Positions 28,950 through 41,876 of a stretch of DNA of 64,000 nucleotides are shown here, one piece after another. This stretch comes from Elusimicrobiota bacterium (GTDB taxonomy: Bacteria; Elusimicrobiota; Elusimicrobia; UBA1565; UBA9628). How positions within the stretch are numbered: the first letter of the stretch is position 1; each line of letters starts with the position of its first letter. The position numbers and the translations under genes are program-made. The DNA lies in contig JACPOW010000001.1 of NCBI GenBank assembly GCA_016191335.1, positions 1,035 to 65,034 on the forward strand, given 5' to 3'. The notes under the pieces are model-generated. The model was not told the DNA's origin. It saw nothing but the letters and a program-made list of their open reading frames with translations, and made no database searches.

Positions 28950-29522
28950 ATGTTAGAGATACGCTTTCACGGCCGCGGCGGCCAAGGGACGGTCCTCGCC
29001 GCCAAGATCATCGCCGACGCGGTCCTGCGCCAGGGCGAGAAGCAGTGCCTGGCGATCCCGGAGTTCGGCGTCGAGCGCCGCGGCGCGCCGGTCATGGCCT
29101 ACGCCCGCGTCAGCGACCAGCCCATCCTCGCGCGCACCAAGATCTACGCGCCGGACGCCCTGGTCGTCCTCGACCCCACCCTATATACGTCCGACATCCT
29201 GAAAGGGATCAAGCCCGGCGGCACGGTCCTGACCAACAGCGACCCCGCCGACATCCCGAAGCTCTCCGCCCGCGCGCCGGGCCTCAAGTTCATCGCCGTC
29301 CCCGCGCACAATATCGCGCTCGAGCTCAAGCTCGGCTCCGCCTCGAGCCCGATCGTCAACACCGCGATGTGCGGCGCCGCCTGCGCCGTGTTCGGCCTGT
29401 GCGGCCTCGACGCGCTGCTCGAGTGCGTCCGCGAGGCCGTGCCGGTCAAGGCCGACGCCAACGTCGAGGCCGCGCGCCGCGCCTTCGAAGCCGCCCGGGA
29501 GGTCCTGCATGCCTCTGCTTGA
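28950..29522 (+). CDS. 2-oxoacid:ferredoxin oxidoreductase, gamma subunit
   Basis: 190 aa from ATG 28950. MLEIRFHGRGGQGTVLAAKII is the typical gamma-subunit N-terminus. Confidence 0.85.
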   Translation: MLEIRFHGRGGQGTVLAAKIIADAVLRQGEKQCLAIPEFGVERRGAPVMAYARVSDQPILARTKIYAPDALVVLDPTLYTSDILKGIKPGGTVLTNSDPADIPKLSARAPGLKFIAVPAHNIALELKLGSASSPIVNTAMCGAACAVFGLCGLDALLECVREAVPVKADANVEAARRAFEAAREVLHASA

Positions 29523-29790
29523 CGAAGACCCCAGAGCCTACCCGCGCGTGATGATCGCGTCGCGCTCGATGGACGAGAACCACACGGGCAACTGGCGCAC
29601 CTTGCGCCCCGTCATCGACGCGAAGGCCTGCACCGGCTGCAACATCTGCTGGAAGCAGTGCCCCGAGGCCTGCGTGGACCTGACCGACAAGGTCCCGAGC
29701 ATCGACATGGATTACTGCAAGGGCTGCGGCATCTGCGTGGCCGAGTGCCCGGCCCACTGCGTGCATTTCGTCCCCGAGAGCGCGTCATGA
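29509..29790 (+). CDS. 2-oxoacid:ferredoxin oxidoreductase, delta subunit (2x[4Fe-4S] ferredoxin)
   Basis: 93 aa with CTGCNICWKQCP and CKGCGICVAECP cluster motifs. Confidence 0.85.
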   Translation: MPLLDEDPRAYPRVMIASRSMDENHTGNWRTLRPVIDAKACTGCNICWKQCPEACVDLTDKVPSIDMDYCKGCGICVAECPAHCVHFVPESAS

Positions 29791-30941
29791 AGAAAGTCCT
29801 CAGCGGAAACCACGCCGCGGCGCTGGCCGCGCAGCTCGCCCGGACCCAGGTCTCCGTCGGCTATCCGATCACGCCGGCCACCCAGGTCTTCGAGGCTCTA
29901 GCGGAAATGAAGTCCAAAGGTGAATTCCCCGGGGAGTTCATCGCCGCGGAGTCCGAGCACTCGGTCATGGCCGCGCTGCTCGGCGCCTCCACCGCCGGGG
30001 CGCGCACCTTCACCGCGACCTCCTCGCACGGCCTGGCCTACATGCACGAGGTCCTGCACTGGGTCGCCGGAGCGCGCCTGCCCATCGTGATGATCGACGT
30101 CAACCGGGCCCTCGCCGCGCCGTGGAACCTGTGGACCGACCAGACCGACTCCCTCTCCCAGCGCGACACCGGCTGGATGCAGACCTACTGCTCGACCAAC
30201 CAGGAAGTCCTCGACACAGTGCTGATGTCGTTCAAGATCGCCGAGCGCGTGATGCTGCCCTCGATGGTGGTGCTCGACGGCTTCACTTTGTCTCACAGCT
30301 ACGAGCCGGTCGACGTCCCGGCCCAGGCGGACGTCGACGCGTTCCTGCCCCCCTTCCGCCCGGAGCTGAAGCTCGACTGCGACCAGCCGATCACCTTCGG
30401 CTCGCTCACCCAGCCCAAGGACTACCTGCGCCTGCGCCGCCGCATGGCCGCGGACATGGCCGAGGCCGAGGACGCCATCGAGGAGGTCGGGCGCGAGTTC
30501 GGCGAGATGTTCGGCCGCTCCTACGGCCAGCTCGACCCCTATCTCTGCGAGGACGCCGAGACCATCCTCGTGACGAGCGGGGCCGTCGGCTCCACCGCGC
30601 GCGCCGCCGTCGACGCGCTGCGCGCCAAGGGCCTCAAGGCCGGCAACCTGCGCCTGCGCGCCTTCCGGCCGTTCCCGGCCAAGGCCCTGCGCGCCTTCGT
30701 GCGTCCGGGCATGAAGCTCGCGGTCGTCGACCGCAACTACTCCCCCGGCATGGGCGGCATCTTCGCCCAGGAGATCAAGGCCGCGCTGTACCCGCGCCCC
30801 GGCGTCTCCGTGCACGGCTACGTGACCGGCCTCGGAGGCGGCGACATCACCGTCGAGCTGCTCCAGGAGGTCTGGGAGCGGGTCGACGAGTCTCCCGTGG
30901 CCGAGGTCCCCGCCGCGACCTGGGTGGAGGACGCCCGATGA
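29787..30941 (+). CDS. 2-oxoacid:ferredoxin oxidoreductase, alpha subunit
   Basis: 384 aa from ATG 29787 (ATGA overlap). N-terminus MKKVLSGNHAAALAAQLARTQVSVGYPITPAT. Confidence 0.85.
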   Translation: MKKVLSGNHAAALAAQLARTQVSVGYPITPATQVFEALAEMKSKGEFPGEFIAAESEHSVMAALLGASTAGARTFTATSSHGLAYMHEVLHWVAGARLPIVMIDVNRALAAPWNLWTDQTDSLSQRDTGWMQTYCSTNQEVLDTVLMSFKIAERVMLPSMVVLDGFTLSHSYEPVDVPAQADVDAFLPPFRPELKLDCDQPITFGSLTQPKDYLRLRRRMAADMAEAEDAIEEVGREFGEMFGRSYGQLDPYLCEDAETILVTSGAVGSTARAAVDALRAKGLKAGNLRLRAFRPFPAKALRAFVRPGMKLAVVDRNYSPGMGGIFAQEIKAALYPRPGVSVHGYVTGLGGGDITVELLQEVWERVDESPVAEVPAATWVEDAR

Positions 30942-31822
30942 CCACGCTCAAGAAGACGAAGACCTCGATCCCCCAGACCGAGCTGATGAGCTCGGGCCAC
31001 CTGGCCTGCCAGGGCTGCGGCGCGACGATGGCGATGCGCTACGCGCTCAAGGGCCTGGGCGACCGGACCGTCATGGTCGTCCCCGCCTGCTGCTGGACCG
31101 TGATCTCCGGGGCCAATCCGCGCAGCTCGATCAACCTGCCGCTGCTGCACAGCCCCTTCGCCGCGGCCGCGGCCACGGCGACCGGCGTCAAGGCCGGCCT
31201 CGTCTCCCGCGGCGACAAGGAGACGACCGTCGTGGCCTGGGCCGGCGACGGCGGCACCTTCGACATCGGCATCCAGGCGCTGTCCGGCGCCGCCGACCGC
31301 AACGAGGACATCCTCTACGTCTGCTACGACAACGAGGCCTACATGAACACCGGGGTGCAGCGCAGCGGCGGCACGCCCTCCGGCGCGTGGACGATGTCCA
31401 CCCCCGGCGGGAGCTCGCGCCCGAAGAAGGACCTCGACGCGATCATGCTCGCCCACCACATCCCCTATTTCGCCACCGCCACGCCGGCCTACGCCGAGGA
31501 CATGGTGCGCAAGTTCGCCAAGGCGCGGACGGTCAAGGGCTTCCGCTTCATCCACATCCTCTCCCCGTGCCCCCCCGGCTGGAAGACCGACCCGATGGAC
31601 AGCACCAAGCTCTCCCGCCTGGCCGTGCAGACCGGCCTGTTCCGCCTCTACGAGGTGGAGGAGGGCGTGATGAAGCTCAACATGAACGTGGCCAACCGCA
31701 AGCCCGTCGCGGAATACCTGAAGGCGCAGGGCCGCTTCAAGAACATGCCCCCGGATGAGATGTCCGCGATCCAGGCCCGCGTCGACGCGTTCTGGGAGAG
31801 CGAGAAGGGGCGGCCGTCATGA
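30938..31822 (+). CDS. 2-oxoacid:ferredoxin oxidoreductase, beta subunit (ThDP-binding)
   Basis: 294 aa from ATG 30938 (ATGA overlap). Contains GHLACQGCG, AWAGDGGTFDIG and YDNEAYMNTG. Confidence 0.85.
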   Translation: MTTLKKTKTSIPQTELMSSGHLACQGCGATMAMRYALKGLGDRTVMVVPACCWTVISGANPRSSINLPLLHSPFAAAAATATGVKAGLVSRGDKETTVVAWAGDGGTFDIGIQALSGAADRNEDILYVCYDNEAYMNTGVQRSGGTPSGAWTMSTPGGSSRPKKDLDAIMLAHHIPYFATATPAYAEDMVRKFAKARTVKGFRFIHILSPCPPGWKTDPMDSTKLSRLAVQTGLFRLYEVEEGVMKLNMNVANRKPVAEYLKAQGRFKNMPPDEMSAIQARVDAFWESEKGRPS

Positions 31823-31998: not shown

Positions 31999-32047
31999 CC
32001 GCCCCCCCGCCGACTTTCGTATCCTCATCCTCACGCTGGAGAAAACC

Positions 32048-34378
32048 ATGCCCACCGTCACCGCCGCCGAACAATTCACGCTGAGGCCCCGCCGCGCCGT
32101 CTACCTGAAGCCCGAGCCCGCCGCCTTCGAGGGCGTCGAGACGCTCGAGGCGATGGACGCCGCCTACCGCGCCCTGTGCGCGATCCTCTTCAACTTCGTG
32201 CCGAACTCCGGCCATCCGGGAGGCAGCATCTCCTCGGGGCGCATCGTCTCCTCCCTCCTCTACAAGAACCTGCGCTACGACTTCTCCCGCCCCGACACGA
32301 TCGACAACGACGTCCTCGTCTACGCCGCCGGCCACAAGGCGATGGGCCTGTACGGGATGTACGCCCTGCGCGACGAGTGGGTCCGCATCGCGCGCCCCGA
32401 CCTCCTGCCCTCCGAGCGCCGCCGCCTGCGCCTCGAGGACCTGCTCGGCTTCCGCCGCAACCCGACGCAGTCGACGCCCCTCTTCCGCCAGTTCAAGTGC
32501 ATGGCCCTCGACGGCCATCCGACCCCGATGACGCCCTTCGTGCCCGTCGCCACGGGCGCCTCCGGCGTCGGCGACTGCACCGGCGTCGGCCTGGCGCTCG
32601 CCGCGATGGACGCCTTCGGGCCCAAGGGCCCCCGCGTCCACCTCCTCGAGGGCGAAGGCGGCATGACCGCCGGGCGCGTGCACGAGGCGCTGGCCACCGC
32701 GGCCACCGCGGGCCTGTCGAACGCCATCATGCACCTGGACTGGAACCAGGCCTCGATCGACTCCGACCGCGTCACCGCCGAGGGCGACAAGCCCGGCGAC
32801 TACGTGCAGTGGGACCCGCGCGAGCTGCTGTACATGAACGACTGGAACCTCGTCGAGGCCGGCGACGGCAGCGACTTCCGCCGCGTGCTGGCCGCCCAGC
32901 AGGCCGCGCTCTCCCTCGACAACGGCCAGCCCACCGCGATCGTGTACCGCACGACCAAGGGCTGGAAGTACGGCATCGAGGGCAAGGGCTCCCACGGCGC
33001 GGGCCACGCTTTCTGCTCCGACGCCTTCTACAAGGCCGTCGAGCCTTTCGAGACCGCGTTCGGCGTGAAGCTCCCCCGCTTCGAAGGGGAGAAGACCCCG
33101 GACCGCGTCGAGGCGGCGTACTGGGAGACCTTGCTCACCATGCGCAAGGCGTTCGAGACGAAGCGCCCCGACGTGGCGCGCTTCGCGGCCGGGCGCGTGG
33201 CCGAAGCGGGCGCGGCGACCCCGAAGGGGCGCGCCGTCCGCGCCGGCGGGCCCGACCTGGCGGCGCTGTACGCCTCCGACCTCAAGGCCGAGGTCACGCC
33301 CGAGCCCCTCAAGCTCGAGACCGGCAAGGCCGCCACCATCCGAGGCGCCTTGGGCGACGCTTTGGGCTACCTCAACACCGTCACCAAGGGCGCCATCATC
33401 GCGTGCGCGGCCGACCTGGCCGAGTCCACGAGCGTCTCCCCGATCAACAAGGCCTTCGCCAAGGGCTGGTTCCACGCCAAGAACAACCCCGTCTCGCGCC
33501 TGATCTCCGTCGGCGGCATCTGCGAGGACGCGATGGGCGGCGTGATGGCCGGGGCCTCGAGCCTGGGCCTGCACATCGGCGTGTCGAGCTCCTACTCCGC
33601 CTTCATCGCCGCGCTCGAGCACGTCCCCGCGCGCCTGCACTCCATCGGCCAGCAGATGCGCCACGAGGCGACGGGCGAGCCCAACCGCGTCTGGATCATG
33701 GTCAACGCCCACGCCGGCCCGCTCACCGGCGAGGACGGCCCGACCCACGCCTGTCCTCAGGCCCTGCAGCTGCTGCAGGACAACTTCCCGAAGGGCTCGC
33801 TGATCACGCTCACGCCCTGGGACCCGTCGGAGGTCTGGCCGCTCGTGATGGAATCCCTGCGCGCCCGCCCCGCCGTGCTGGCCCCGTTCGTCACGCGCCC
33901 GGCCTGCCCGGTGCCGGACCGCGCGAAGATGGGATTGCCGCCCGCGTCCGCGGCGGCCAAGGGCATCTACGCGGTGCGCCGCGGCGGCAAGAAGACCGTC
34001 GTCCTGCAGGGCCACGGCGTGGCGCATCACTTCATGCGCGACGTCCTGCCCAAGCTCGACGCCGCGGGCGTCAAGCTCAACGTCTTCTACGTGGCCAGCG
34101 CCGAGCTCTACGACCGCCTCAGCCCCGCCGAAAAGGAGGAAGTCTTCCCGCCCGAGCTGGCCTTCAACTCCATGGGCATCACGGACTTCACCTTGGCCAC
34201 GATGTGGCGCTGGGTGCGCTCCGACGCGGGGCTGGCGGCGACGCTGTATCCGGCGAAGACCTTGGGCTACCTGGGCAGCGGCTCGGGCGACAAGGTCCTC
34301 GAGCAGGCGGGCCTGACCGGCCCCGGACAGCTGGCGGCGATCACGGCCTGGGTCGCCGGCGGCGATTCGAGAGACTGA
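32048..34378 (+). CDS. long transketolase-family ThDP enzyme (776 aa), atypical
   Basis: Contains HPGGSISSG, LLEGEGGMTAG...LDWNQASID and TGEDGPTH. GGAGAAAACC Shine-Dalgarno upstream. An extra segment of roughly 100 aa lies between the PP and Pyr domains. Confidence 0.75.
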   Translation: MPTVTAAEQFTLRPRRAVYLKPEPAAFEGVETLEAMDAAYRALCAILFNFVPNSGHPGGSISSGRIVSSLLYKNLRYDFSRPDTIDNDVLVYAAGHKAMGLYGMYALRDEWVRIARPDLLPSERRRLRLEDLLGFRRNPTQSTPLFRQFKCMALDGHPTPMTPFVPVATGASGVGDCTGVGLALAAMDAFGPKGPRVHLLEGEGGMTAGRVHEALATAATAGLSNAIMHLDWNQASIDSDRVTAEGDKPGDYVQWDPRELLYMNDWNLVEAGDGSDFRRVLAAQQAALSLDNGQPTAIVYRTTKGWKYGIEGKGSHGAGHAFCSDAFYKAVEPFETAFGVKLPRFEGEKTPDRVEAAYWETLLTMRKAFETKRPDVARFAAGRVAEAGAATPKGRAVRAGGPDLAALYASDLKAEVTPEPLKLETGKAATIRGALGDALGYLNTVTKGAIIACAADLAESTSVSPINKAFAKGWFHAKNNPVSRLISVGGICEDAMGGVMAGASSLGLHIGVSSSYSAFIAALEHVPARLHSIGQQMRHEATGEPNRVWIMVNAHAGPLTGEDGPTHACPQALQLLQDNFPKGSLITLTPWDPSEVWPLVMESLRARPAVLAPFVTRPACPVPDRAKMGLPPASAAAKGIYAVRRGGKKTVVLQGHGVAHHFMRDVLPKLDAAGVKLNVFYVASAELYDRLSPAEKEEVFPPELAFNSMGITDFTLATMWRWVRSDAGLAATLYPAKTLGYLGSGSGDKVLEQAGLTGPGQLAAITAWVAGGDSRD

Positions 34379-34384
34379 GCCCGG

Positions 34385-36964
34385 TCACCTCGCGCGCAGC
34401 AGGACGTCTTCAGGTCCCGACAGGGACGGCGTCTGGTCGCGGTTCTGGCGGCGCGCCTCGTCCTGGACCTTGGGCTTGAGGTAGGAGTGCAGGGAGGCCG
34501 TCGTGACCGGCCCGCCCGCCGACAGCCCCTTGAGCAGGTGGTAGGTGAACAGGCCGTGGCCCTGCTCCTTGAGCACGCTCGTGATCTGGTCGGGCTGGGT
34601 CGCCGCGAGCACCGAGAGGCGGCCCGTCGCGGGCTTCTGCAGCCTCGACACGAGCGGCCGCGCGCCCTCGGAGAGCACGGAGCGCCCTCCCGCTCCCGAG
34701 AAGCAGGCGTCGAGCAGGACGACGACCTGCTTCGCCTTGAGGCCGTCGAGCGTCTTATAGAGCCGGTCCACGGGATACGCCGTGTCCGCGAGGAACGAGG
34801 CGTCGCCGTCCCACGGCATCAGGAACGCCCGGCCCGTCGACGGGTCGGGCGCGCCGTGCCCCGAGAAATAGAAGAAGACCCGGCTGCGCTCGTTCGCGTT
34901 CTTGGGCAGCCAGCTCTCGAGGTACTTGGCGAGCGCGGAGCGCCCGGCCTTGGCGCCCGAGAGCAGGATGAGGTTGCGCTCGGGCACGCCGAGAGCCTTG
35001 AGGTGACGGCGCACCGCGGCCGCGTCGCGTTCGGCGAAGAGCGCCTTCGGAAGCTCGGAGTACTCCTCGACGCCGACGACGATCGCGAAGGCGTCGGGAT
35101 CCTCGGGCAAGGCGTAGCCGGGCTTGTCCGCGTCGGAGACGAGCGCCGGCGCCGCGGCCGGCGGCGCGACGGCGACGGCGGCCTTCTTCTCGCGCGCGGC
35201 GGCCGCCGCCACGGCCTGATCGACGAGGCGATGCACGTCGGGCGTTGGAGCGGCGGGCTTGCCGCGCGCGGACGCGGAGCGCAGGATGTTCAATGTCTCG
35301 GCGCCCTTCGCGTGGTCGTAGGGCGTCTTCTGGCTGTTGTCCTGCCACAAGGGATCGGCGCCCTTGGCGAGCAGCCAGCTCACCATCTTCGCGTTCCCCT
35401 GCTCGGCGGCGCGCGTCAGCGCGGTGAACCCGATCTGGTCGGGCCGGTCGATTCTGGCGCCTCCCGCCAGCAGCGCCTGCGCGGACTCGAGGGAGCAGTC
35501 GGGCCGCACGGCGCAGCCCGCGAGCGGCGCCTCATCGCGCGCGCCGTCTCCCTGGTTCGGGTCGGCCCCCGCGGCGAGCAGCCGCTTGACGACGTCCGGC
35601 CACTCGAGCGCCATCGTGAGCGGAGGCTCCTTGCGTCCGGAGCGCAAGGACAGGTCCGGCTTGTGCTTGAGCAGAGCGGCGAGCAGCGGCTCCGAAGGCT
35701 TCGGGCGCGGCCACGGCGGGCCCTCGAGCAGGCGCGTGAGCGCCGTGTAGCCTTTCGCGTCGGGGGCGTCGAGCTTCGCGCCGGCGGCGAGCAGCGCCTC
35801 GAGGGACTCGGGGCCGCAGTCCTTCTCCCCCTCGGAATGCCGGCTCGTCAGATAGGTGAGCGGAGTCAGCCCGCGCTCGGCGTCCGCCTGCTCGGGATCG
35901 GCGCCGTGCTTGAGGGCCCAGTCCAACAGTTCGGGGTCGCACGCGACGCGGTGAAGCGGGGGACGTCCCCCGGACATCAGGCCGCGATGCCCCGGATGCG
36001 ACAGGAGCAGCTTGACAGCCTCGCGATTGCCCGCGGCCAGGGCGGTCTCAAGAGGCACCTCCCCTTCCCTGACGCAGGAAACAGGGTCCCCGCCAGGGTA
36101 GGCCAGCAGCCAGCGCAGCGCGGGCGTCAGCGCCGGCGAAGCGGCGGCGCGAGCCAGCGAGACTCTGCGCAGGCACCATGGGGATTCGAAGGCGACGCCG
36201 CGCGACACGATCAGGTCGGCGAGAGCCGGATCGGGCCGCTCGACCTCGAACAGCGCGCGATCAACCGCACCGTCTACAATGTAATCAGGCCCGATCTTCA
36301 GAGTGGGGCTCGACTCGAGGACCAAGCGCAGAGTCTGAGTGTCGCCACGGACGCCCGCCCGCGGCCAATCCGAATCGAACGGATAACCGGAGGCGAGCAG
36401 GCCCCGCGCCGCCTCGGGGCAGACACTCGAGGGGGCCGGTTGAAGCTTGGCGCCGCGCTTGATGAGCAGCTCGAAATGCTTCATGCAGCATTCGCCGGCG
36501 GCACGGTATAGCGGACCGTCGTAGACGTCTTTCGGGTGGGCGTTGGGCGAAGCACCTCCGTCGAGCAGGACCTCGAGCAAAGCGGGGTTCTCGCGGCCTT
36601 GAGGGCAGCCGCTGTGATAGGTCAACTGGGAGGTCATGTTCCCCTTGTTGCTCACGTCGGCGCGAACGCCGGCCGCGAGAAGCCGTTTGACGGTCTCGGT
36701 GCCGCGCTGCATGGCGAACTTGAGCAGGGACAGCTGATCCTCGTCGGCGGAAGGGACCTTCACGCCGGCGGCGAGCAGCAGATGGACGGACCCGGTCGAC
36801 CCGGATCTCAACGCCTCCTGAAGATGCGCGGTCTTGGGCTTGCGCTCCTTGAGAAGCTCGGCGACCTTCGCCGGGTCTCCCAGCGCGTCCATGAGGGGGT
36901 CTTTCGCGGCGGCGATCGAAGGCAGGACGGCGGCGAGCAGCAGGGCGGGGAGCAAAGTCCTCAT
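34385..36964 (-). CDS. secreted ankyrin-repeat protein with a C-terminal caspase-family (C14) domain
   Basis: 859 aa from ATG 36964 (signal MRTLLPALLLAAVLPSIAAA). At least 8 ankyrin-like repeats (G[AG][AD][PL][ND] turns, e.g. LLAAGADPNQGD, LAKGADPLWQD). The C-terminus has the His-Cys dyad context FFYFSGHGAP and VVLLDACFSGAGG. Confidence 0.8.
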   Translation of the reverse strand: MRTLLPALLLAAVLPSIAAAKDPLMDALGDPAKVAELLKERKPKTAHLQEALRSGSTGSVHLLLAAGVKVPSADEDQLSLLKFAMQRGTETVKRLLAAGVRADVSNKGNMTSQLTYHSGCPQGRENPALLEVLLDGGASPNAHPKDVYDGPLYRAAGECCMKHFELLIKRGAKLQPAPSSVCPEAARGLLASGYPFDSDWPRAGVRGDTQTLRLVLESSPTLKIGPDYIVDGAVDRALFEVERPDPALADLIVSRGVAFESPWCLRRVSLARAAASPALTPALRWLLAYPGGDPVSCVREGEVPLETALAAGNREAVKLLLSHPGHRGLMSGGRPPLHRVACDPELLDWALKHGADPEQADAERGLTPLTYLTSRHSEGEKDCGPESLEALLAAGAKLDAPDAKGYTALTRLLEGPPWPRPKPSEPLLAALLKHKPDLSLRSGRKEPPLTMALEWPDVVKRLLAAGADPNQGDGARDEAPLAGCAVRPDCSLESAQALLAGGARIDRPDQIGFTALTRAAEQGNAKMVSWLLAKGADPLWQDNSQKTPYDHAKGAETLNILRSASARGKPAAPTPDVHRLVDQAVAAAAAREKKAAVAVAPPAAAPALVSDADKPGYALPEDPDAFAIVVGVEEYSELPKALFAERDAAAVRRHLKALGVPERNLILLSGAKAGRSALAKYLESWLPKNANERSRVFFYFSGHGAPDPSTGRAFLMPWDGDASFLADTAYPVDRLYKTLDGLKAKQVVVLLDACFSGAGGRSVLSEGARPLVSRLQKPATGRLSVLAATQPDQITSVLKEQGHGLFTYHLLKGLSAGGPVTTASLHSYLKPKVQDEARRQNRDQTPSLSGPEDVLLRAR

Positions 36965-37034
36965 CCGGCCGATTGTACCCGTTCGACGGATTTTGGACAA
37001 GCCCGGCTGGCAGGTTTGTTGCATTTCAGACGAC

Positions 37035-37187
37035 ATGAAAAAGTGCCCTGATTGTCGCAATCCCGTCACTTCGCTGATGTTCCTCGACGGCAAGCTCGTC
37101 CCCGAGCACTACTGCGAGCGCTGCTGTAAGAGCGTCGCCCCCGTGGTGAAGCCCGTCGCGGCGCCCCGGGAAGCGGTCCCCGCCTAA
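37035..37187 (+). CDS. 50-aa zinc-ribbon-like protein (CxxC-x19-CxxC)
   Basis: Product MKKCPDCRNPVTSLMFLDGKLVPEHYCERCCKSVAPVVKPVAAPREAVPA. It ends 16 nt before the CoA-transferase A gene. No clear Shine-Dalgarno. Confidence 0.45.
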   Translation: MKKCPDCRNPVTSLMFLDGKLVPEHYCERCCKSVAPVVKPVAAPREAVPA

Positions 37188-37203
37188 GACCCCCAGGGGC
37201 CTC

Positions 37204-38370
37204 ATGCCGAAGACCGGCGCCCCCGTCTGCTCGGACTGCGGCTGGCTGGAGACGCGGACCAGCGCCGACGGCCGCTCGTTGCGCTTCTGCGTCAAGCACG
37301 GCATGCCGCGCTCCGCGGTCGACCTCCTCTCCGCGCCCTGCAGCGACTTCAAGCCCCTGGAGACGACGGGAGTCCTCCCCGCCCAGCCCCCGCTCCCCCC
37401 GCCGGTCCGGCCGCTGCCGGAACCGCCGCTGTTCCAGCCGCCGGACCCCGACGGCTTCCGCCGCTTCCTGCGCGACGACAAGGATTTTTCGCTCCGCTCG
37501 AAACTGATGGACGAGCGCCAGGCGGTCAAGCGCTTCATCCGCACCGGCGACTACATCGGCTTCGAGCTGTACGGCACGGTCCGCTGCCCGATGTCGGTGG
37601 TGCGCGAGATCGCGCGCCGGAAGATCGGCGGCCTGCGCCTGATGGGCCAGGGCCTGATGGACGCCGACTTCCTGATCGCCTCCGGCCTCGTCGACGAGAT
37701 GGACATCACCTACGTGGGCTACGAGGCCTACGGCCTCTCCCCCATCCTGCGCCGCGCCGTCGAGGGCGGCGCGCTCAAGCTCGCGGAATGGTCCAACGCC
37801 GCCATCACCTGGCGCATGAAGGCGGCGGCGATGGGCCTGCCGTTCCTGCCCGCGCGGACCATGCTCGGCACCGACACGCTCGCCCGCAGCCCGGCCAAGA
37901 CGATGAAGGACCCCTTCACCGGCATGGACCTGACCTTGCTGCCGGCGCTCGTCCTCGACACGGCGGTCATCCACGTCCACCGCGCCGACAAGTTCGGCAA
38001 CTGCCAGATCGACGGCATCTCCGGCTTCGCCGTCGAGATGTCCCGGGCCTGCAAGCGCCTCATCGTCAGCGCCGAGGAGATCGTCGACACCGAGGTGTTC
38101 CGCAGGACGCCCGAGCGCACCGTCATCCCCTATTTCCTCGTCGACGCCGTCGTCCCCGCGCCCTTCGGCGCGCACCCCGGCGAGACCTGCGGCGTCTACC
38201 GCCGCGACGAGCCGCACATCAAGGCCTACCTCGAGGCGACGCGGTCCGAGGAAGCGACCAAGGAATATCTCGACGAGTTCATCCACGGCGTGAAGGACCA
38301 CGCCGCCTATCTCAAGCGCGTCGGCGCCGCCCGCCTGGGCAAGCTGAAGGTGAGGAAGAATGAGCGCTGA
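37204..38370 (+). CDS. family-I CoA-transferase subunit A (glutaconate-CoA-transferase-like) with a ~100-aa N-terminal 4-Cys + Pro-rich extension
   Basis: 388 aa. The canonical domain begins near KLMDERQAVKRFIRTGDYIGFE. The extension MPKTGAPVCSDCGWLETRTSADGRSLRFCVKHGMPRSAVDLLSAPCSDFKP has high GC3 and the same Cys spacing as ORF 31819-31998. Confidence 0.8.
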   Translation: MPKTGAPVCSDCGWLETRTSADGRSLRFCVKHGMPRSAVDLLSAPCSDFKPLETTGVLPAQPPLPPPVRPLPEPPLFQPPDPDGFRRFLRDDKDFSLRSKLMDERQAVKRFIRTGDYIGFELYGTVRCPMSVVREIARRKIGGLRLMGQGLMDADFLIASGLVDEMDITYVGYEAYGLSPILRRAVEGGALKLAEWSNAAITWRMKAAAMGLPFLPARTMLGTDTLARSPAKTMKDPFTGMDLTLLPALVLDTAVIHVHRADKFGNCQIDGISGFAVEMSRACKRLIVSAEEIVDTEVFRRTPERTVIPYFLVDAVVPAPFGAHPGETCGVYRRDEPHIKAYLEATRSEEATKEYLDEFIHGVKDHAAYLKRVGAARLGKLKVRKNER

Positions 38371-39127
38371 GAAGGCCAACGCCACCGAGCGCCTCGCCTG
38401 CACCGCGGCCCGCCTGATGAAGGGCCGCACGACCGTCTTCATCGGCACCGGCGTGCCGATGCTGGCCGCGTCGCTCGCCCGCGCCCTGTACGCGCCCTCG
38501 CTCATCCCCGTCTTCGAGTTCGGCGGCGTCGGCTCGACCCTCGAGAAGCTGCCGCTCGCCGTCGGCGAGCACAACTCCTTCCGCCGCGGCGTCGCGGCGA
38601 TGGGCATCTGCGACGTGATGGAGGCCGCGCAGCGCGGCGTGGTGCGAGACGGCTTCCTCGGCGGCGCGCAGATCGACCCGTACGGCAACCTGAACACGAC
38701 CGTGATCGGCCCCTACGACGACCCCGCGGTGCGCCTGCCCGGCTCGGGCGGGGCCAACGACGTCGGCTCCCTGTGCTGGCGCACGATCATCATCATGAAG
38801 CACGAGCGCAAGCGCTTCGTGCCGAAGGTGGATTTCCTGACCACGCCGGGCTACCTCGACGGCCCCGGCGCCCGCGAGCGCGCGGGCCTGCCGCCGGAGA
38901 CGGGCCCCTACCGCGTCGTGACCGACCTCGCCGTCTTCGACTTCGACCCGGGCTCCAAGCGCATGCGCCTGATCGCGCTGAACCCCGGCGTGACCACGGA
39001 GCGCGTCGCCGCCGAGACCGGCTTCCCTTTCCCCATCGCCGACCGGGTCACGCTCAACGCCGACCCGACCCCGCTCGAGCTTCGGACTTTGCGCCGCAAG
39101 ATCGACCCCGACAAGGTCTTCCTCTGA
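38360..39127 (+). CDS. family-I CoA-transferase subunit B
   Basis: 255 aa. GGAQIDPYGNLNTTVIG...RLPGSGGANDV pattern. Overlaps subunit A by 11 nt. Confidence 0.8.
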   Translation: MSAEKANATERLACTAARLMKGRTTVFIGTGVPMLAASLARALYAPSLIPVFEFGGVGSTLEKLPLAVGEHNSFRRGVAAMGICDVMEAAQRGVVRDGFLGGAQIDPYGNLNTTVIGPYDDPAVRLPGSGGANDVGSLCWRTIIIMKHERKRFVPKVDFLTTPGYLDGPGARERAGLPPETGPYRVVTDLAVFDFDPGSKRMRLIALNPGVTTERVAAETGFPFPIADRVTLNADPTPLELRTLRRKIDPDKVFL

Positions 39128-39201
39128 CCCGACTGCTGCTCGTCGACCTGATCCCCGATACCGCGGTCCACCACCCGCGGACGATCACCTTTCCGTTCCT
39201 G

Positions 39202-40608
39202 ATGGGCCTGAGCCGGCTCCTCGGCTGGCGGGCCTGCTGGAGCGCGCTCGGCGTGCGCTACGCCCCCGACCTGCGCTACGTCCTGACGAAGGAGGACCTG
39301 GCGCTCCTGCTCGCCGAGACGAAGCGCCGCCGTCCCGAGATCGTGGTCATCAACCAGCGCCTGCCGAAGGGCCAGATGAACGCGATCGCCGCCGCGTCCG
39401 GCGCGCGCGTCGTGTATTGGAACATGACCGAGAACGTCCACGACCTCGCCGAACACGTCCGGCGCCGGATGCCGGAAGCCCGCGGCCCCGTCCTCGACGA
39501 CCCGGGGCTGCTCGACCGGATACGCCCGGACTACCGGTGCACGATCCTCAACAAGGCCCCCTGGGCCGCCAACCCGGTCGTCGAGGTGATCGGCGGCCAT
39601 CGCTGCTCCTACCACGCTCCCGTCGCCTCCAATCCGTTCTACCGCGGCCTCGGCCTGCCGTCGGCGAGCATGGGCTGCTCCTTCTGCCAGGTGCCCGACA
39701 TGAAGAGCTCCCGCTGGCGGGTCAAGGATGCGGCGGCCTTCACCGTGAGGCAGATCGCGGCGCTCAGCCGCCAGCGGCCCGCGAAAGGCGGCGAGACGCG
39801 CCTCAACCTGTGCGGCTACGAGCTGTGGCGGCGCCTCGAGGAGCTCGCCCGCGCCTTGGTCCGCGAGGGCGTGCGCGGCGTCGAGCTCGATTTCATGCCC
39901 CGGCTCGACGAGGTGCTCGCCGCGCGGGTCGCCATCGAGCGCGTCCTGCCGCTGCTGGCGGGCAACGGGATCTCCCTGCGCATCAACGGCCTGGGTGTCG
40001 AGAACTTCTCGCCGGACGAGAACGCGCGCCTGCACAAGGGCATCACGGCCGAGCAGGTCCATGAGGCGTCCGCCTTCCTGACCGCCTGCTCCGAGCGCTG
40101 GCCCGGGACCTTCCGGCTGCCGTTCGGTGGGCTGGGCATGATCCTGTTCACGCCCTGGACGACGCTGAAGGACCTGCGCGTCAACCTCGACAACATCGAG
40201 CGCTGCCCTTTGATCGACCGCCCGTTCGCGCTCAGCCGGCGGCTGATGCTGTTCCCGGGCGCGCCGGTCACCTTGCTCGCCGAGCGGGACGGCCTTCTCG
40301 CGAAGACGCACGACGGCCTCTTCTACAACGCCGGCTGCAAGATCGACGCCGACAAGAACGACCTCCCCTGGCGCTTCGCCCGGCCGGAGGTCGCGGTGCT
40401 GTGGAGCCTCGCCCGCCGGATCTCGTCGGACCGCTACAACATCCCCGACGACGACCCCGTCAAGCGCGCCGCCGCGCCCTTCGTCGACCGGCCCGGGAGG
40501 GCGCCGTTCGACCCCCTCCCGCTGTTCCGGGAGGCCGTCGACGCCATCGAGCGCCGCCCGAAGACCGCCTCGCCGCTCGAGCTGCTCGCGCTCCTGCGCG
40601 CGCCCTAG
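39202..40608 (+). CDS. radical-SAM-like TIM-barrel protein with a non-canonical Cys motif (start uncertain; frame open from 39124)
   Basis: The frame is open from the codon overlapping the subunit B stop. The first ATG is at 39202, with only CTG codons before it. Motif HRCSYH-x..-GCSFC (C-x23-C-x2-C). Later blocks (GLGVENFS, GMILFTPWTTLKDL) resemble radical-SAM barrels. Confidence 0.5.
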   Translation: MGLSRLLGWRACWSALGVRYAPDLRYVLTKEDLALLLAETKRRRPEIVVINQRLPKGQMNAIAAASGARVVYWNMTENVHDLAEHVRRRMPEARGPVLDDPGLLDRIRPDYRCTILNKAPWAANPVVEVIGGHRCSYHAPVASNPFYRGLGLPSASMGCSFCQVPDMKSSRWRVKDAAAFTVRQIAALSRQRPAKGGETRLNLCGYELWRRLEELARALVREGVRGVELDFMPRLDEVLAARVAIERVLPLLAGNGISLRINGLGVENFSPDENARLHKGITAEQVHEASAFLTACSERWPGTFRLPFGGLGMILFTPWTTLKDLRVNLDNIERCPLIDRPFALSRRLMLFPGAPVTLLAERDGLLAKTHDGLFYNAGCKIDADKNDLPWRFARPEVAVLWSLARRISSDRYNIPDDDPVKRAAAPFVDRPGRAPFDPLPLFREAVDAIERRPKTASPLELLALLRAP

Positions 40609-41876
40609 CGGCGGCGGGCGACGGCGCGCAGGCTCGCCTCGAGGTCCTTGATGATGTCCACGGGGCTCTCGAGCCCGATGGACAGGCGTATGCCGCGGTT
40701 CTCCTTCATCGGGCCGTGGCCGGCGTAGGCCGAGTGCGTCATCCCCGAGGGGAGCTCGATCAAGGTCTTGGTGTGGCCGAGGCTGACGGCCAAGGTCACG
40801 CAGTAGGCGTTCTGCGCGACGTGGTCGACGAACTTGACCGCGTCGATCTTCCTCTCGTCGAGCTTGAAGTAGATCATGTTGCCCGGCGCGAAGCCCCCGT
40901 CGAAGTCGCGCATCTGGCGCAGCGCCAGGCCGTGCTGCGGGAAGGAGTCGAGCCCGGGGTAGCGGACGGTCGCGACCAGGGGATGGTTCTGGAGGTAGCG
41001 GGCGACGTGCAGGGCGCTGTACTGCTGGCGCTTGATGCGCAGCGGGATGGTGGGCACGCCGTAGACCAGGATGGCCCACGCGGCCTTCGGCGAGAGGATG
41101 CCGCCGAAGTCCTTGCGGTAGCTCGCCAGCAGAGGGAAGACCTCCTTGGAGCAGCACACCGCGCCCCCGACCTCGGTGCCGAAGCCGCCGATGTTCTTGG
41201 TCAGGGAATGGAGCGTGACGTCGATGCCGTGCTCGATCGGGCGCTGGCCGAAGGGCGTGGCGAAGGTGTTGTCGATGACCGTGAAGATCCTCCGCTTGCG
41301 GCCCTTGTTGGCCTTGGCCGCGGCGTCGGAGACGGCGCGCAGGTCCACGAGGTCCAAGGTCGGGTTGACCGGGGACTCGAAGTACAGCGCGCGCGTGCGG
41401 GAGTTGACCGCCTTCGCCACCGCCTTGGCGTCGGTGAAGTCGACGCGCCGCACCTTGATGCCGAGCTTCGGATACCAATTGGTGAACAGGGAATGCGTGC
41501 AGCCGTACAGCAAGGTGTGCGCGACGACCTCGTCGCCCGACTGGAGCAGGCAGCCCAGCGCCGCCGAGACGGCGGCCATGCCGGAGGCGAAGGTCAGGCA
41601 GGCGTCGGCGCCCTCCATCGAGGCGATCTGGCTCTCCAGGAGGCCGCGCGTCGGCTCCTCGAGTCGGTCGTAGATGTAGATCGGCGCCTCGCTCTCCTTG
41701 CGGAACGCGCCGAACTCGTTGAAGCCGCGGGCCGCGCGCTTGACCGACTCCAGGCGGAAGGTCGTCGACGCGGTGAGGGGCGGCACCACGTGATGGGCGT
41801 AGTCCCACCGCGGGGTCTTGGCCGCGCCGTGCACGATGCGGGTCGTCTTCTTGTAGCCGGCGGCGTTGTTGGCCAT
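40605..41876 (-). CDS. Cys/Met-metabolism PLP-dependent enzyme (methionine gamma-lyase / cystathionine gamma-synthase / OAH sulfhydrylase family)
   Basis: 423 aa. HSLTKNIGG PLP-lysine block; YDRLEEPTR, ESPVNPTL and DNTFATP blocks. Exact activity cannot be called from the sequence. Confidence 0.8.
   Translation of the reverse strand: MANNAAGYKKTTRIVHGAAKTPRWDYAHHVVPPLTASTTFRLESVKRAARGFNEFGAFRKESEAPIYIYDRLEEPTRGLLESQIASMEGADACLTFASGMAAVSAALGCLLQSGDEVVAHTLLYGCTHSLFTNWYPKLGIKVRRVDFTDAKAVAKAVNSRTRALYFESPVNPTLDLVDLRAVSDAAAKANKGRKRRIFTVIDNTFATPFGQRPIEHGIDVTLHSLTKNIGGFGTEVGGAVCCSKEVFPLLASYRKDFGGILSPKAAWAILVYGVPTIPLRIKRQQYSALHVARYLQNHPLVATVRYPGLDSFPQHGLALRQMRDFDGGFAPGNMIYFKLDERKIDAVKFVDHVAQNAYCVTLAVSLGHTKTLIELPSGMTHSAYAGHGPMKENRGIRLSIGLESPVDIIKDLEASLRAVARRR

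What the first reader, a model, noticed from the sequence alone, without database searches (positions are those of the whole stretch)
28950..41876. Split anaerobic 2-oxoacid supercluster with several components that fit no textbook pathway
Seen:
- Four translationally coupled 2-oxoacid:ferredoxin oxidoreductase genes (gamma-delta-alpha-beta, ATGA overlaps) run straight into a 59-codon Cys-rich ORF and a 776-aa transketolase-family gene.
- 2.7 kb further on the same strand lie a 50-aa Zn-ribbon ORF, a family-I CoA-transferase A/B pair and a radical-SAM-like ORF.
- This second group ends tail-to-tail (shared CTAG) with a Cys/Met-family PLP enzyme that is itself preceded by a small Cys-rich membrane protein.

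Inference:
- A gamma-lyase (2-oxobutyrate), the oxidoreductase (acyl-CoA) and the CoA-transferase (free acid) would make a complete methionine-type fermentation route.
- The transketolase-like enzyme, the radical-SAM-like protein and three small Cys proteins have no role in that scheme.
- The locus may therefore encode an undescribed pathway or enzyme complex.
Basis: partly seen in the sequence, partly recalled or inferred. Interest (0 to 1): 0.75.

Follow-up and report, generated by a model that had tools for sequence, protein, structure and literature searches.

The report
Elusimicrobial oxoacid oxidoreductase–transketolase–CoA-transferase gene block
A real gene block, conserved within one clade of an uncultured Elusimicrobiota bacterium, joins a 2-oxoacid:ferredoxin oxidoreductase, an unusual long transketolase, a CoA-transferase and a methionine-lyase-like enzyme; most parts are ordinary enzyme families, and the new element is a small four-cysteine module that follows the oxidoreductase genes and is also fused to the CoA-transferase.

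Summary
The window comes from a ~70% GC Elusimicrobiota MAG.

**Ancestral layout.** Relatives show one co-directional string, porG-D-A-B, c59, transketolase-like (TKL), z50, CoAT-A, CoAT-B, converging on a methionine-gamma-lyase-like gene.

**Changes in this window.**
- A minus-strand ankyrin-caspase gene is inserted after TKL.
- A divergent radical-SAM gene lies after CoAT-B. It is absent from some near relatives, and more distant homologues sit in unrelated contexts.

**Conservation.**
- The full block exists only in close relatives.
- Pairwise links recur in other lineages in different arrangements: por→CoAT-AB, TKL↔CoAT-AB, and CoAT-AB with the lyase.
- A non-orthologous oxidoreductase sits directly upstream of TKL in KSB1-like genomes.

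**Component readings.**
- TKL has the transketolase fold and all catalytic residues I could map. It belongs to a large multi-phylum family that is usually solitary, so it is probably a genuine transketolase and not a pathway oddity.
- The CoA-transferase is glutaconate-CoA-transferase-like and keeps the catalytic glutamate.

**New element.** c59 and the N-terminus of CoAT-A are homologous members of an undescribed Cys4 mini-protein family. That family is repeatedly translationally coupled to porB.

The parts
28950..29522 (+). porG/vorG: gamma subunit of a four-subunit 2-oxoacid:ferredoxin oxidoreductase
   Evidence: Pfam POR 1.2e-38; TIGR02175 PorC_KorC 165.6 bits, above its cutoff of 81
29509..29790 (+). 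porD: delta subunit with two 4Fe-4S motifs (CTGCNICWKQCP, CKGCGICVAECP)
   Evidence: TIGR02179 PorD_KorD 86.3 bits, above its cutoff of 60; sequence
29787..30941 (+). porA: alpha subunit (POR_N + PFOR_II)
   Evidence: Pfam 5.3e-70 and 6.5e-26. Best NCBIfam models are PorA_Arch (437 bits) and VOR alpha (412 bits), both below their equivalog cutoffs
30938..31822 (+). porB: beta (TPP-binding) subunit
   Evidence: NF008818 '3-methyl-2-oxobutanoate dehydrogenase subunit beta' 407.6 bits against a cutoff of 405; PorB 355.6 bits
31819..31998 (+). c59: free-standing Cys4(+1) mini-protein with a C-terminal HWGP tail, translationally coupled to porB (ATGA)
   Evidence: No Pfam match. Homologous to the CoAT-A N-terminal domain by reciprocal HMM hits, a gapless alignment and a shared family of 79 clusters. 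Conserved in L004/5/6/46/87/91/94.
32048..34378 (+). TKL: 776-aa 'long' transketolase-family enzyme
   Evidence: Pfam Transketolase_N, Transket_pyr and TK_C_1. Best NCBIfam transketolase model (NF004559) 140.9 bits against a cutoff of 488; all four transketolase models hit are below cutoff. AF2 pLDDT 88.5; Foldseek top hits are all full-length transketolases, E 1e-33, TMt ~0.8. The catalytic and phosphate-binding residues I could map are invariant. At least 551 species genomes in many phyla carry a relative.
34385..36964 (-). Ankyrin-repeat + caspase (C14) secreted protein: a lineage-specific insertion, not part of the system
   Evidence: Pfam Ank_2 2.5e-25 and Peptidase_C14 1.2e-12. GC3 0.88 against 0.97 in neighbours. 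Absent in L005 and L093, where TKL and z50/CoAT-A are adjacent; other inserts occupy this site in L046, L087, L091 and L094.
37035..37187 (+). z50: 50-aa zinc-ribbon-like ORF (CPDC...CERCC)
   Evidence: 56-82% identical copies in nine relatives. It overlaps the TKL stop in L005 and sits directly upstream of CoAT-A in the window, L004, L091 and L095. No Pfam match.
37204..38370 (+). CoAT-A: glutaconate-CoA-transferase-type subunit A with an N-terminal Cys4 domain (about 37204-37360) and a Pro-rich linker
   Evidence: Pfam CoA_trans 7e-27. PDB GctA 1poi_A 2.8e-39. The N-terminal domain is kept in the Elusimicrobia clade down to ~55% identity and absent from the 323-aa homologues elsewhere.
38360..39127 (+). 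CoAT-B: subunit B with the catalytic glutamate (E53)
   Evidence: PDB GctB 1poi_B 5.5e-53. E53 aligns with the active-site ESG of GctB; AibB lacks it.
39202..40608 (+). Divergent radical-SAM-like protein (CX23CX2C): a variable accessory gene
   Evidence: 100% identical to NCBI HYX59_00180; only 81 homologues found. Invariant C135, C159 and C162. Weak Pfam Radical_SAM in 8 of 43 members. AF2 pLDDT 89.5; Foldseek top hits OxsB 6.7e-7, then an MtaB model, MgmA and MiaB.
40605..41876 (-). Methionine-gamma-lyase-like PLP enzyme, convergent with the CoAT string
   Evidence: Pfam Cys_Met_Meta_PP 1.6e-99. MGL NCBIfam models 312 and 309.5 bits, below cutoffs. Aligned to C. freundii MGL 6egr (4.5e-71), YxYxR, YGCT, DNTF, SxTK, VSLG and RLS are all conserved. 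Adjacent to CoAT-AB also in L064 and L092.
41886..42251 (-). 121-aa Cys-rich membrane or secreted protein (CGTTAGGCATGHGC): probably part of the neighbouring YwiC/metal module, not the pathway
   Evidence: No Pfam match. Present only in close relatives and absent in L046. In L087 the flanking genes are YwiC, an ECF sigma factor and a Cu-type P-ATPase.

Best explanation
This is a clade-conserved operon-like block of anaerobic carbon and amino-acid metabolism in an uncultured Elusimicrobiota bacterium. Two lineage-specific insertions have split it in this genome.

**Layout (shown by comparison with relatives)**
- The ancestral layout is porG-porD-porA-porB-c59-TKL-z50-(Cys4)CoAT-A-CoAT-B on one strand, converging on an MGL-like gene.
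- The ankyrin-caspase gene and the radical-SAM-like gene are later or variable additions.

**Function (inferred from family membership and conserved catalytic residues)**
1. The MGL-like lyase can make 2-oxobutyrate (or pyruvate) from methionine, homocysteine or cysteine.
2. The POR/VOR-type oxidoreductase converts 2-oxoacids plus CoA into acyl-CoA, CO2 and reduced ferredoxin.
3. The glutaconate-CoA-transferase-type enzyme passes the CoA to another carboxylate and releases the acid.
4. TKL is most likely a genuine sugar-phosphate transketolase. It belongs to a large, uncharacterised 'long' subfamily and is co-located and possibly co-expressed with these genes, without being a step in that route.

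**The Cys4 module (inferred, more weakly)**
- The ~50-aa Cys4 module occurs free as c59 directly after porB. It also occurs fused by a flexible linker to CoAT-A.
- It is probably a metal-binding adaptor associated with the oxidoreductase, and may tether the CoA-transferase to it.
For: **Gene identities:**

**Ancestral layout and insertions**
- L005 and L093 have TKL-z50-CoAT-A contiguous.
- L005 and L046 lack the radical-SAM gene.
- The whole block with the radical-SAM gene is found only in the nearest relatives L087, L091 and L094.

**Functional coupling of oxidoreductase and CoA-transferase**
- L086 has porGDAB→Cys4-CoAT-A→CoAT-B, all overlapping, with an acyl-CoA dehydrogenase alongside.

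**TKL↔CoAT-AB adjacency, in different orders**
- L085 and L105 (TKL→CoAT-AB), L026 (CoAT-AB→TKL), and L064 with the PLP gene between them.

**Oxidoreductase↔TKL in a second phylum**
- A non-orthologous KorABC-type oxidoreductase lies directly upstream of TKL in L027, L034 and L047.

**TKL as a transketolase**
- Fold match.
- H56, H96, H157, N233, R432, E493, H555, D563, H567 and R617 align to transketolase catalytic and phosphate-binding residues and are invariant in 48 homologues.
- 130 immediate neighbours in 77 loci fall into 119 Pfam families.

**Cys4 module**
- Reciprocal HMM hits.
- Gapless C-x2-C-x16-C-x16-C-x2-F alignment.
- 79 clusters, mostly 48-94 aa, including bridging sequences.
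- porB→Cys4 overlap also in L171 and L175.
Against: - No experiment or expression data exist for any part.
- The complete block is restricted to close relatives. In other Elusimicrobia with 78-90% identical TKL there is no por or CoAT nearby (L007-L013, L016). Zn-CoAT-AB stands alone in L096 and L097.
- Oxidoreductase substrate (pyruvate, 2-oxoisovalerate or 2-oxobutyrate) and CoA-transferase substrates cannot be read from sequence.
- Outside Elusimicrobia the CoAT family associates most often with acyl-CoA dehydrogenases (13 of 85 loci), not with oxidoreductases.
- The MGL-like gene is convergent, so it is not co-transcribed.
- The Cys4 family also occurs away from por: L172, L173, and downstream of TKL in L013 and L016. 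The adaptor role is therefore conjecture.
- Repeated TKL adjacency to oxidoreductases, CoAT and Cys-rich modules is not explained if TKL is only a housekeeping transketolase.
Confidence: 0.55

Rival explanations
1. Synteny without function. The block is a run of unrelated housekeeping genes (main pyruvate oxidoreductase, transketolase, a CoA-transferase, a sulfur-amino-acid lyase). They sit together only through shared descent in one clade.
For: - The full arrangement occurs only in relatives with >=90% identical TKL.
- TKL is solitary in most phyla.
- The CoAT-AB family is mostly solitary or sits next to acyl-CoA dehydrogenases elsewhere.
- Insertions are tolerated between the genes.
Against: - Pairwise adjacency reappears in different orders and orientations in lineages only 56-69% identical (L026, L064, L085, L086).
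- Tight overlaps occur: por→CoAT in L086 and TKL→CoAT 3 nt apart in L085.
- A non-orthologous oxidoreductase sits next to TKL in KSB1-like genomes.
- One Cys4 module is shared between the por string and CoAT-A.
Confidence: 0.2
2. All components, including TKL, the radical-SAM-like protein and the three small Cys proteins, form one undescribed pathway or multi-enzyme complex.
For: - c59 and z50 are conserved and flank TKL.
- The radical-SAM gene occupies the same slot in L087, L091 and L094, and a 50% paralogue lies between TKL and CoAT-A in L004.
Against: - The radical-SAM gene is absent in L005 and L046. Its homologues P0257 and P0267 lie in unrelated neighbourhoods.
- The membrane Cys protein is absent in L046 and L064 and adjoins YwiC and metal-transport genes.
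- The ankyrin-caspase gene interrupts the string.
Confidence: 0.1
3. TKL is not a classical transketolase. It is a TPP enzyme working with small metal-binding partners and ferredoxin-linked enzymes. For example, it could oxidise or transfer a C2 ketol unit whose product enters CoA chemistry handled by the adjacent transferase.
For: - TKL is flanked by c59 and z50 in the window clade, and by a c59-like ORF in L013 and L016.
- 13 of 82 TKLs carry a fused 8-Cys C-terminal domain.
- Oxidoreductases lie next to TKL in two phyla, with NfnAB-like genes downstream in KSB1-like loci and upstream in L078.
- GDG is replaced by an invariant GEG, and an invariant Cys492 sits next to the catalytic Glu.
- All NCBIfam transketolase models hit score far below cutoff, and NCBI names the protein 'hypothetical'.
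Against: - The transketolase catalytic histidines, Asp and both phosphate-binding arginines I could map are invariant.
- The whole-length fold match is to transketolases.
- Most TKLs have no Cys-rich partner and no redox neighbour.
- The Cys modules look like Zn ribbons, not Fe-S motifs.
Confidence: 0.08
4. The CoAT-A/B pair is not a transferase. It would be a decarboxylase or hydrolase of the glutaconate-CoA-transferase fold, like AibAB or IpdAB.
For: The glutaconate-CoA-transferase family includes such members, and they appear among the PDB hits: 5mzw (2.9e-26) and 6co6 (1e-27).
Against: - It is far closer to authentic GctA/B (2.8e-39 and 5.5e-53).
- It keeps the catalytic Glu in the E-x-G motif, which AibB lacks at that position in the alignment.
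Confidence: 0.05

Closest known systems
Four-subunit pyruvate/2-ketoisovalerate:ferredoxin oxidoreductases (PorCDAB/VorCDAB type; example organisms recalled from memory: Pyrococcus, Thermotoga, methanogens)
   Same: - Gamma-delta-alpha-beta gene order with overlapping genes.
- All four subunit families hit, including two 4Fe-4S motifs in delta.
   Different: - Only the beta subunit reaches a curated cutoff, and that model is the VOR-beta subfamily. Substrate is unassigned.
- It is followed by a translationally coupled Cys4 mini-protein that has no Pfam family. From my own knowledge, this is not PorE/PorF and not the epsilon subunit of five-subunit enzymes.
Glutaconate CoA-transferase GctAB of Acidaminococcus fermentans (PDB 1poi)
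   Same: - Two-subunit family I CoA-transferase.
- Best PDB match for both subunits.
- The catalytic Glu of the beta subunit is conserved.
   Different: - No 2-hydroxyglutaryl-CoA dehydratase or decarboxylase genes are nearby.
- Subunit A carries an extra N-terminal Cys4 domain on a Pro-rich linker.
- Its partners here are an oxidoreductase, TKL and an MGL-like lyase.
Transketolase (EC 2.2.1.1), e.g. Thermus thermophilus 2e6k, Bacillus anthracis 3m49
   Same: - Three-domain fold over the full length.
- TPP and substrate residues conserved.
   Different: - About 110 extra residues and only ~20% identity.
- GDG→GEG in the metal-binding motif.
- Fails all curated transketolase cutoffs that were hit.
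- A subset has a fused double-Zn-ribbon-like C-terminus.
- The family is named 'hypothetical' by NCBI.
L-methionine gamma-lyase (Citrobacter freundii 6egr, Pseudomonas putida 1gc0)
   Same: Cys/Met PLP fold, with Tyr58/Arg60, Tyr113/Cys115, Asp185, Lys210, Ser339 and Arg374 equivalents all present.
   Different: Scores 312 and 309.5 bits against equivalog cutoffs of 666 and 549.7. About 25 extra residues. Activity untested.
Cobalamin-dependent / MTTase-type radical SAM enzymes (OxsB 5ul2, MgmA 9ccb, MiaB 7mjw)
   Same: - The predicted structure has a Rossmann-like N-domain plus a radical-SAM-like barrel; Foldseek probability 1.0.
- A GVENFS motif recalls the G-x-E-S-x-S region of that class (by eye).
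   Different: - The three invariant cysteines are spaced CX23CX2C, not CX3CX2C.
- Pfam Radical_SAM is below threshold.
- TM-score is only about 0.45.
- The family has about 80 members, nearly all Elusimicrobia.

Membership tests
2-oxoacid:ferredoxin oxidoreductase, four-subunit POR/VOR type | Four subunit families (gamma POR domain, delta 2x[4Fe-4S], alpha POR_N+PFOR_II, beta TPP-binding) encoded together | tested here: met
   both CxxCxxCxxxCP motifs are visible in porD
2-oxoacid:ferredoxin oxidoreductase, four-subunit POR/VOR type | Assignment to a substrate class by a curated equivalog model | tested here: inconclusive
   Beta reaches the VOR-beta subfamily cutoff by 2.6 bits (407.6 against 405). 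Alpha and gamma equivalogs are all below cutoff.
Transketolase | Three-domain transketolase fold (PP, Pyr, C) | tested here: met
   AF2 pLDDT 88.5, pTM 0.91. The 50 best PDB matches are all transketolases, TMt 0.75-0.81.
Transketolase | Catalytic His residues, cofactor-activating Glu, Asp/His of GEDGPTH, and two phosphate-binding Arg | tested here: met
   Alignment to T. thermophilus and split-chain transketolases. The same residues are invariant in 48 homologues. The equivalent of E. coli His261 was assigned by eye only.
Transketolase | GDG...N metal/TPP motif | tested here: inconclusive
   Invariant G-E203-G...N233: the Asp is replaced by Glu
Transketolase | Passes curated transketolase family thresholds | tested here: not met
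   NF004559 140.9 against 488; TIGR00232 98.8 against 682
Transketolase | Ketol-transfer activity; being the genome's transketolase | not testable with these tools
   No whole-genome access. No second transketolase-like ORF in the window or in any fetched locus, but these cover only about +/-10 kb.
Family I CoA-transferase, glutaconate-CoA-transferase type | A and B subunits with the CoA_trans fold | tested here: met
   Pfam 7e-27 and 8e-27; GctA 2.8e-39 and GctB 5.5e-53
Family I CoA-transferase, glutaconate-CoA-transferase type | Catalytic glutamate in the beta subunit (E-x-G) | tested here: met
   E53 in VFEFGG aligns with the ESG of GctB
Family I CoA-transferase, glutaconate-CoA-transferase type | Substrate (glutaconate / 2-hydroxyglutarate) | not testable with these tools
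   No dehydratase or decarboxylase partner genes are present. The commonest neighbours in the wider family are acyl-CoA dehydrogenases.
L-methionine gamma-lyase | PLP lysine, Tyr/Arg of the neighbouring subunit, catalytic Tyr and the MGL-typical Cys (YGCT) | tested here: met
   Alignment to 6egr
L-methionine gamma-lyase | Passes curated MGL equivalog thresholds | tested here: not met
   312 against 666 (NF005695) and 309.5 against 549.7 (TIGR01328)
Radical SAM superfamily | CX3CX2C cluster motif | tested here: not met
   The only invariant cysteines are C135, C159 and C162, giving CX23CX2C
Radical SAM superfamily | Profile match at the Pfam gathering threshold | tested here: not met
   18 bits against 29.5; 8 of 43 members give weak hits
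Radical SAM superfamily | Partial TIM-barrel fold with an N-terminal Rossmann-like domain, as in class B / MTTase enzymes | tested here: inconclusive
   Foldseek: OxsB 6.7e-7, an MtaB model, MgmA and MiaB, with probability 1.0 for the first four but TM only 0.34-0.47

The most novel reading that the evidence does not exclude
The long transketolase-like enzyme, its Cys-rich partners (c59, z50, or the fused 8-Cys domain in KSB1-like genomes), an adjacent 2-oxoacid:ferredoxin oxidoreductase and the glutaconate-CoA-transferase-type enzyme would form an undescribed ferredoxin- and CoA-linked route. In this route a TPP-bound C2 unit from a ketose phosphate or 2-oxoacid is oxidised or handed on to CoA chemistry. 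The Cys4 module would be the physical adaptor between the three enzymes.
Probability: 0.07. Interest if true: 0.85.

Novelty: new variant of a known kind. Interest (0 to 1): 0.45.

Why it matters
**If the coupling is real**
- The block gives a compact, testable model for how free-living Elusimicrobiota dispose of 2-oxoacids from sugars or sulfur amino acids.
- In that model ferredoxin is reduced and CoA is recycled by a transferase instead of by the Pta-Ack route.

**Three uncharacterised families flagged for study**
1. A ~50-aa Cys4 mini-protein or domain. It has 79 clusters and no Pfam entry, is repeatedly coupled to porB, and is fused to a CoA-transferase.
2. A 'long' transketolase family found in more than 550 species genomes across about a dozen phyla. 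NCBI labels it hypothetical, and some members carry a Zn-ribbon fusion.
3. An orphan radical-SAM-like family with a CX23CX2C motif.

Metabolic reconstructions already count the long form as 'transketolase' without evidence, so confirming or refuting that would affect many MAG-based models.

Tried and rejected
1. **Homology between the KSB1 8-Cys C-terminal domain of TKL and z50 or c59.** An HMM of 11 of the 13 domains gave only noise-level hits. I treat them as analogous.
2. **A shared riboswitch or RNA element** (for example TPP) upstream of por or CoAT-A. Rfam finds nothing in the region.
3. **Promoter and terminator scan of 28-43 kb.** Counts were no better than shuffles.
4. **A second transketolase, DXS or oxidoreductase** in the window or fetched loci. 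None was found. This is uninformative for the whole genome.
5. **Pfam naming of c59, the Cys4 domain, z50 and the membrane protein.** Nothing reached threshold.
6. **Literature searches** for transketolase-like + oxidoreductase + CoA-transferase, transketolase + zinc ribbon, and Elusimicrobia metabolism. Nothing describes this block.
7. **My initial belief that the 50-aa Zn-ribbon ORF was only the N-terminus of CoAT-A.** This was wrong. A separate z50 ORF exists, and I moved the ankyrin-caspase start to 36964.
8. **A conserved universal neighbour of TKL.** Rejected: 119 Pfam families among 130 neighbours.

Full report
**1. Observation**

The window is ~70% GC, so I chose coding frames by third-position GC.

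| Gene | Coordinates | Strand |
|---|---|---|
| porG | 28950-29522 | + |
| porD | 29509-29790 | + |
| porA | 29787-30941 | + |
| porB | 30938-31822 | + |
| c59 (59 codons) | 31819-31998 | + |
| TKL (776 aa) | 32048-34378 | + |
| z50 (50 aa, CPDC...CERCC) | 37035-37187 | + |
| CoAT-A | 37204-38370 | + |
| CoAT-B | 38360-39127 | + |
| radical-SAM-like | 39202-40608 | + |
| Cys/Met PLP | 40605-41876 | - |
| Cys-rich membrane ORF (121 aa) | 41886-42251 | - |

- ATGA overlaps join porD/porA, porA/porB and porB/c59. The porG/porD overlap is 14 nt.
- The stop of the radical-SAM-like ORF shares CTAG with the stop of the PLP gene.

- The 2.7-kb interval between the two groups holds a minus-strand gene for an ankyrin-repeat + caspase-domain protein, 34385-36964.
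- CoAT-A has its own N-terminal Cys4 domain followed by a proline-rich linker.

**2. Identity of the parts**

*Oxidoreductase.* Pfam and NCBIfam identify a four-subunit POR/VOR-type 2-oxoacid:ferredoxin oxidoreductase.
- Only the beta subunit reaches a curated cutoff: the VOR-beta subfamily model, 407.6 against 405 bits.
- The substrate is therefore open.

*CoA-transferase.*
- The pair is closest to glutaconate CoA-transferase: GctA 2.8e-39 and GctB 5.5e-53.
- Glu53 of the B subunit aligns with the catalytic Glu of GctB. The decarboxylase AibB lacks a Glu at that position.

*PLP enzyme.*
- It is closest to methionine gamma-lyases.
- It keeps Tyr58/Arg60, Tyr113/Cys115, Asp185, Lys210, Ser339 and Arg374 of the C. 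freundii enzyme. It scores below the NCBIfam equivalog cutoffs.

*TKL.*
- It hits the three transketolase Pfam domains weakly, and all four NCBIfam transketolase models it hits score below cutoff.
- Its AlphaFold model (pLDDT 88.5) matches only full-length transketolases (E 1e-33, TMt ~0.8).
- The transketolase catalytic histidines, the cofactor Glu, the GEDGPTH Asp/His and both phosphate-binding arginines are aligned. They are invariant in 48 homologues.
- The only motif change is GDG→GEG.

*Radical-SAM-like protein.*
- It is 100% identical to NCBI 'hypothetical protein HYX59_00180 [Elusimicrobia bacterium]', and only 81 homologues were found.
- Its three invariant cysteines are spaced CX23CX2C.
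- Pfam Radical_SAM is sub-threshold.
- A confident model (pLDDT 89.5) resembles B12-dependent and MTTase-type radical SAM enzymes: OxsB 6.7e-7, then an MtaB model, MgmA and MiaB.
- I read it as a divergent radical SAM enzyme.

**3. Organism and conservation**

TKL homologues place the window in Elusimicrobiota.

I fetched 80 genome loci around TKL relatives and 80 metagenome loci around CoAT-A relatives. I then searched them with all window proteins.

*The full block.*
- CPAF-like protease(-), porGDAB, c59, TKL, ..., CoAT-AB, PLP(-) is present only in close relatives: L004, L005, L006, L046, L087, L091, L093, L094 and L095.

*Evidence for the ancestral layout.*
- In L005 the z50 start overlaps the TKL stop, and CoAT-A follows directly. 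There is no ankyrin-caspase gene and no radical-SAM gene. CoAT-B lies about 30-60 bp from the PLP gene.
- L093 is likewise contiguous.
- The TKL/z50-CoAT-A junction holds different inserts in L046, L087, L091 and L094.
- The split is therefore secondary.

*The radical-SAM gene is variable.*
- More distant homologues (52-56% identity) lie in unrelated neighbourhoods.

*Absence in other Elusimicrobia.*
- Those with 78-90% identical TKL lack por and CoAT nearby (L007-L013, L016).

**4. Evidence for functional links beyond shared descent**

- L086 (CoAT-A 64%, por 55-68% identity) encodes porG-D-A-B→Cys4-CoAT-A→CoAT-B. All junctions overlap, there is no TKL, and an acyl-CoA dehydrogenase lies alongside.
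- L085 and L105 have TKL→CoAT-A 3 nt apart.
- L026 has CoAT-AB→TKL. L064 has CoAT-AB, PLP(-), TKL. L092 also keeps the PLP gene near CoAT-AB.
- In KSB1-like genomes (L027, L034, L047) a non-orthologous KorABC-type oxidoreductase (NF006412, 583 bits) lies directly upstream of TKL on the same strand. It is followed by a CBS protein and NfnAB-like genes.
- L069 has a KorABC-type oxidoreductase within about 2 kb downstream of TKL on the opposite strand. L078 has porA/porB-like genes about 6.5 kb from TKL and an NfnAB-like pair upstream of it.

Against a general link:
- TKL is usually solitary. 130 immediate neighbours in 77 loci fall into 119 Pfam families, and none occurs more than 4 times.
- The wider CoAT-AB family (>=590 hits) is mostly alone or sits next to acyl-CoA dehydrogenases (13 of 85 loci) or to thiolase/DUF35 genes.

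**5. The small cysteine-rich proteins**

*c59 and the CoAT-A N-terminus are homologous.*
- An HMM of 40 CoAT-A N-termini ranks the six c59 orthologues as its best non-self hits among 20,968 six-frame ORFs (E 1e-3 to 4e-2).
- The reciprocal c59 HMM picks the L086 CoAT-A N-terminus (E 2.5e-3).
- The alignment is gapless, with invariant C-x2-C-x16-C-x16-C-x2-F.

*The family is mostly free-standing.*
- A joint profile finds 79 clusters in 1.84 billion proteins. Nearly all are 48-94 aa.
- Some sequences combine the CoAT-type core with the c59-type (H/Y)WGP tail.
- No Pfam family matches.

*Contexts of family members.*

| Locus | Context |
|---|---|
| L171, L175 | overlapping the end of porB |
| L013, L016 | directly downstream of TKL |
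| L172, L173/L174 | elsewhere in the genome |

*z50.*
- It is conserved in nine relatives, next to TKL or CoAT-A.

*Fused domain in other TKLs.*
- 13 of 82 TKLs (KSB1-like) carry a fused 8-Cys, double-zinc-ribbon-like C-terminal domain.
- I could not show this domain to be homologous to z50 or c59.

*The membrane protein.*
- It is present only in close relatives.
- It adjoins YwiC, and in L087 an ECF sigma factor and a Cu-type ATPase.
- I do not count it as part of the system.

**6. Mechanism**

*Best-supported reading (confidence 0.55).*
- A 2-oxoacid → acyl-CoA → acid module, formed by the oxidoreductase and the CoA-transferase.
- The MGL-like lyase is a plausible source of 2-oxobutyrate.
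- The Cys4 module is a putative metal-binding adaptor between oxidoreductase and transferase.
- TKL is a bona fide long-form transketolase that is co-located with, but not a step in, this route.

*What is shown:* gene identities, conserved catalytic residues, ancestral layout, insertions, recurrent adjacencies, and Cys4 homology.

*What is inferred:* substrates, flux direction, operon status, metal binding, and any physical complex.

*Rivals:*
- mere synteny (0.2);
- a redox- or CoA-linked non-classical role for TKL (0.08);
- a non-transferase CoAT (0.05).

**7. Novelty and verdict**

- Nothing in the searchable literature describes this block.
- The enzymes belong to known families, and the arrangement is a lineage-specific variant.
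- The new items are the Cys4 family and its fusion, the uncharacterised long transketolase family with Zn-ribbon partners, and the CX23CX2C radical-SAM-like family.
Most of the components said to fit no pathway prove to be either variable insertions (the radical-SAM gene; the membrane protein is likewise variable and probably unrelated) or a probable ordinary transketolase.

Noticed in passing
window 7145-7215 (-), with downstream genes 6261-7118 (-) and 4630-6264 (-): A 2'-dG-II purine riboswitch aptamer (Rfam RF03165, 74.8 bits, E 2e-17) sits upstream of two genes for apparently secreted or lipoproteins. These lie in a low-GC island (0.60-0.63 against 0.70 for the window). That is an unusual cargo for this riboswitch class.
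   Followed up: partly
window 26367-28745 (-) and 43153-43875 (+): Two proteins best known from Chlamydiae flank the block. One is a CPAF-like S41 protease (NF033424, 563 bits against a cutoff of 250), conserved upstream of por in relatives. The other is a CADD-family protein (TIGR04305, 253.6 bits against a cutoff of 200).
   Followed up: partly
window 34385-36964 (-); L087 3759-4361; L091 and L094 between TKL and CoAT-A: The junction between TKL and z50/CoAT-A is an insertion hot spot. This window has an ~860-aa ankyrin + caspase protein with a signal peptide, L087 has a 200-aa ankyrin protein, and L091 and L094 hold 4-5 kb of other genes. L005 and L093 have nothing there.
   Followed up: partly
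L018, L019, L021-L023, L025, L027, L030, L032, L034, L043, L044, L047 (3' end of the TKL gene): KSB1-like and related TKL homologues (876-913 aa) end in a conserved ~62-aa domain with four CxxC pairs (double-zinc-ribbon-like, sub-threshold Pfam DZR). In L027, L034 and L047 this fused form follows a KorABC-type oxidoreductase. In L027 and L034 it is also followed by a CBS protein and NfnAB-like genes; L047 shares only the CBS protein.
   Followed up: partly
L089 5670-6938 and 7082-8488; L004 15824-17212: The orphan radical-SAM-like family occurs as tandem paralogues in L089 and as several copies per genome (HY926 and DCZ01 locus tags). About 650-aa homologues at 30-39% identity occur in Deltaproteobacteria/Polyangiaceae-type records.
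   Followed up: no
window 41886-43098; L087 9775-13906: The Cys-rich 121-aa membrane protein and a YwiC-like protein sit back to back. In L087 they are followed by an ECF sigma factor and a YHS/HMBD P-type ATPase. This suggests a copper or heavy-metal module that has lost the ATPase in this window.
   Followed up: no
window 45548-46534 (-): A canonical radical SAM protein (Pfam Radical_SAM 8e-16 plus Fer4_12) lies nearby. It may correspond to a shorter Fer4_12 + Radical_SAM gene (239 aa) that sits next to queC in L087, so it may be QueE. I did not test this, and it is unrelated to the divergent radical-SAM-like gene of the finding.
   Followed up: no
L002/L020/L029/L033/L059/L063, upstream of TKL: In Bdellovibrionota, SAR324 and Ignavibacteria genomes TKL is preceded by a class I/II aminotransferase. 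In L002, L020 and L033 it is also flanked by Zn-dependent alcohol dehydrogenases. This is a different recurring context from the one in Elusimicrobia.
   Followed up: no
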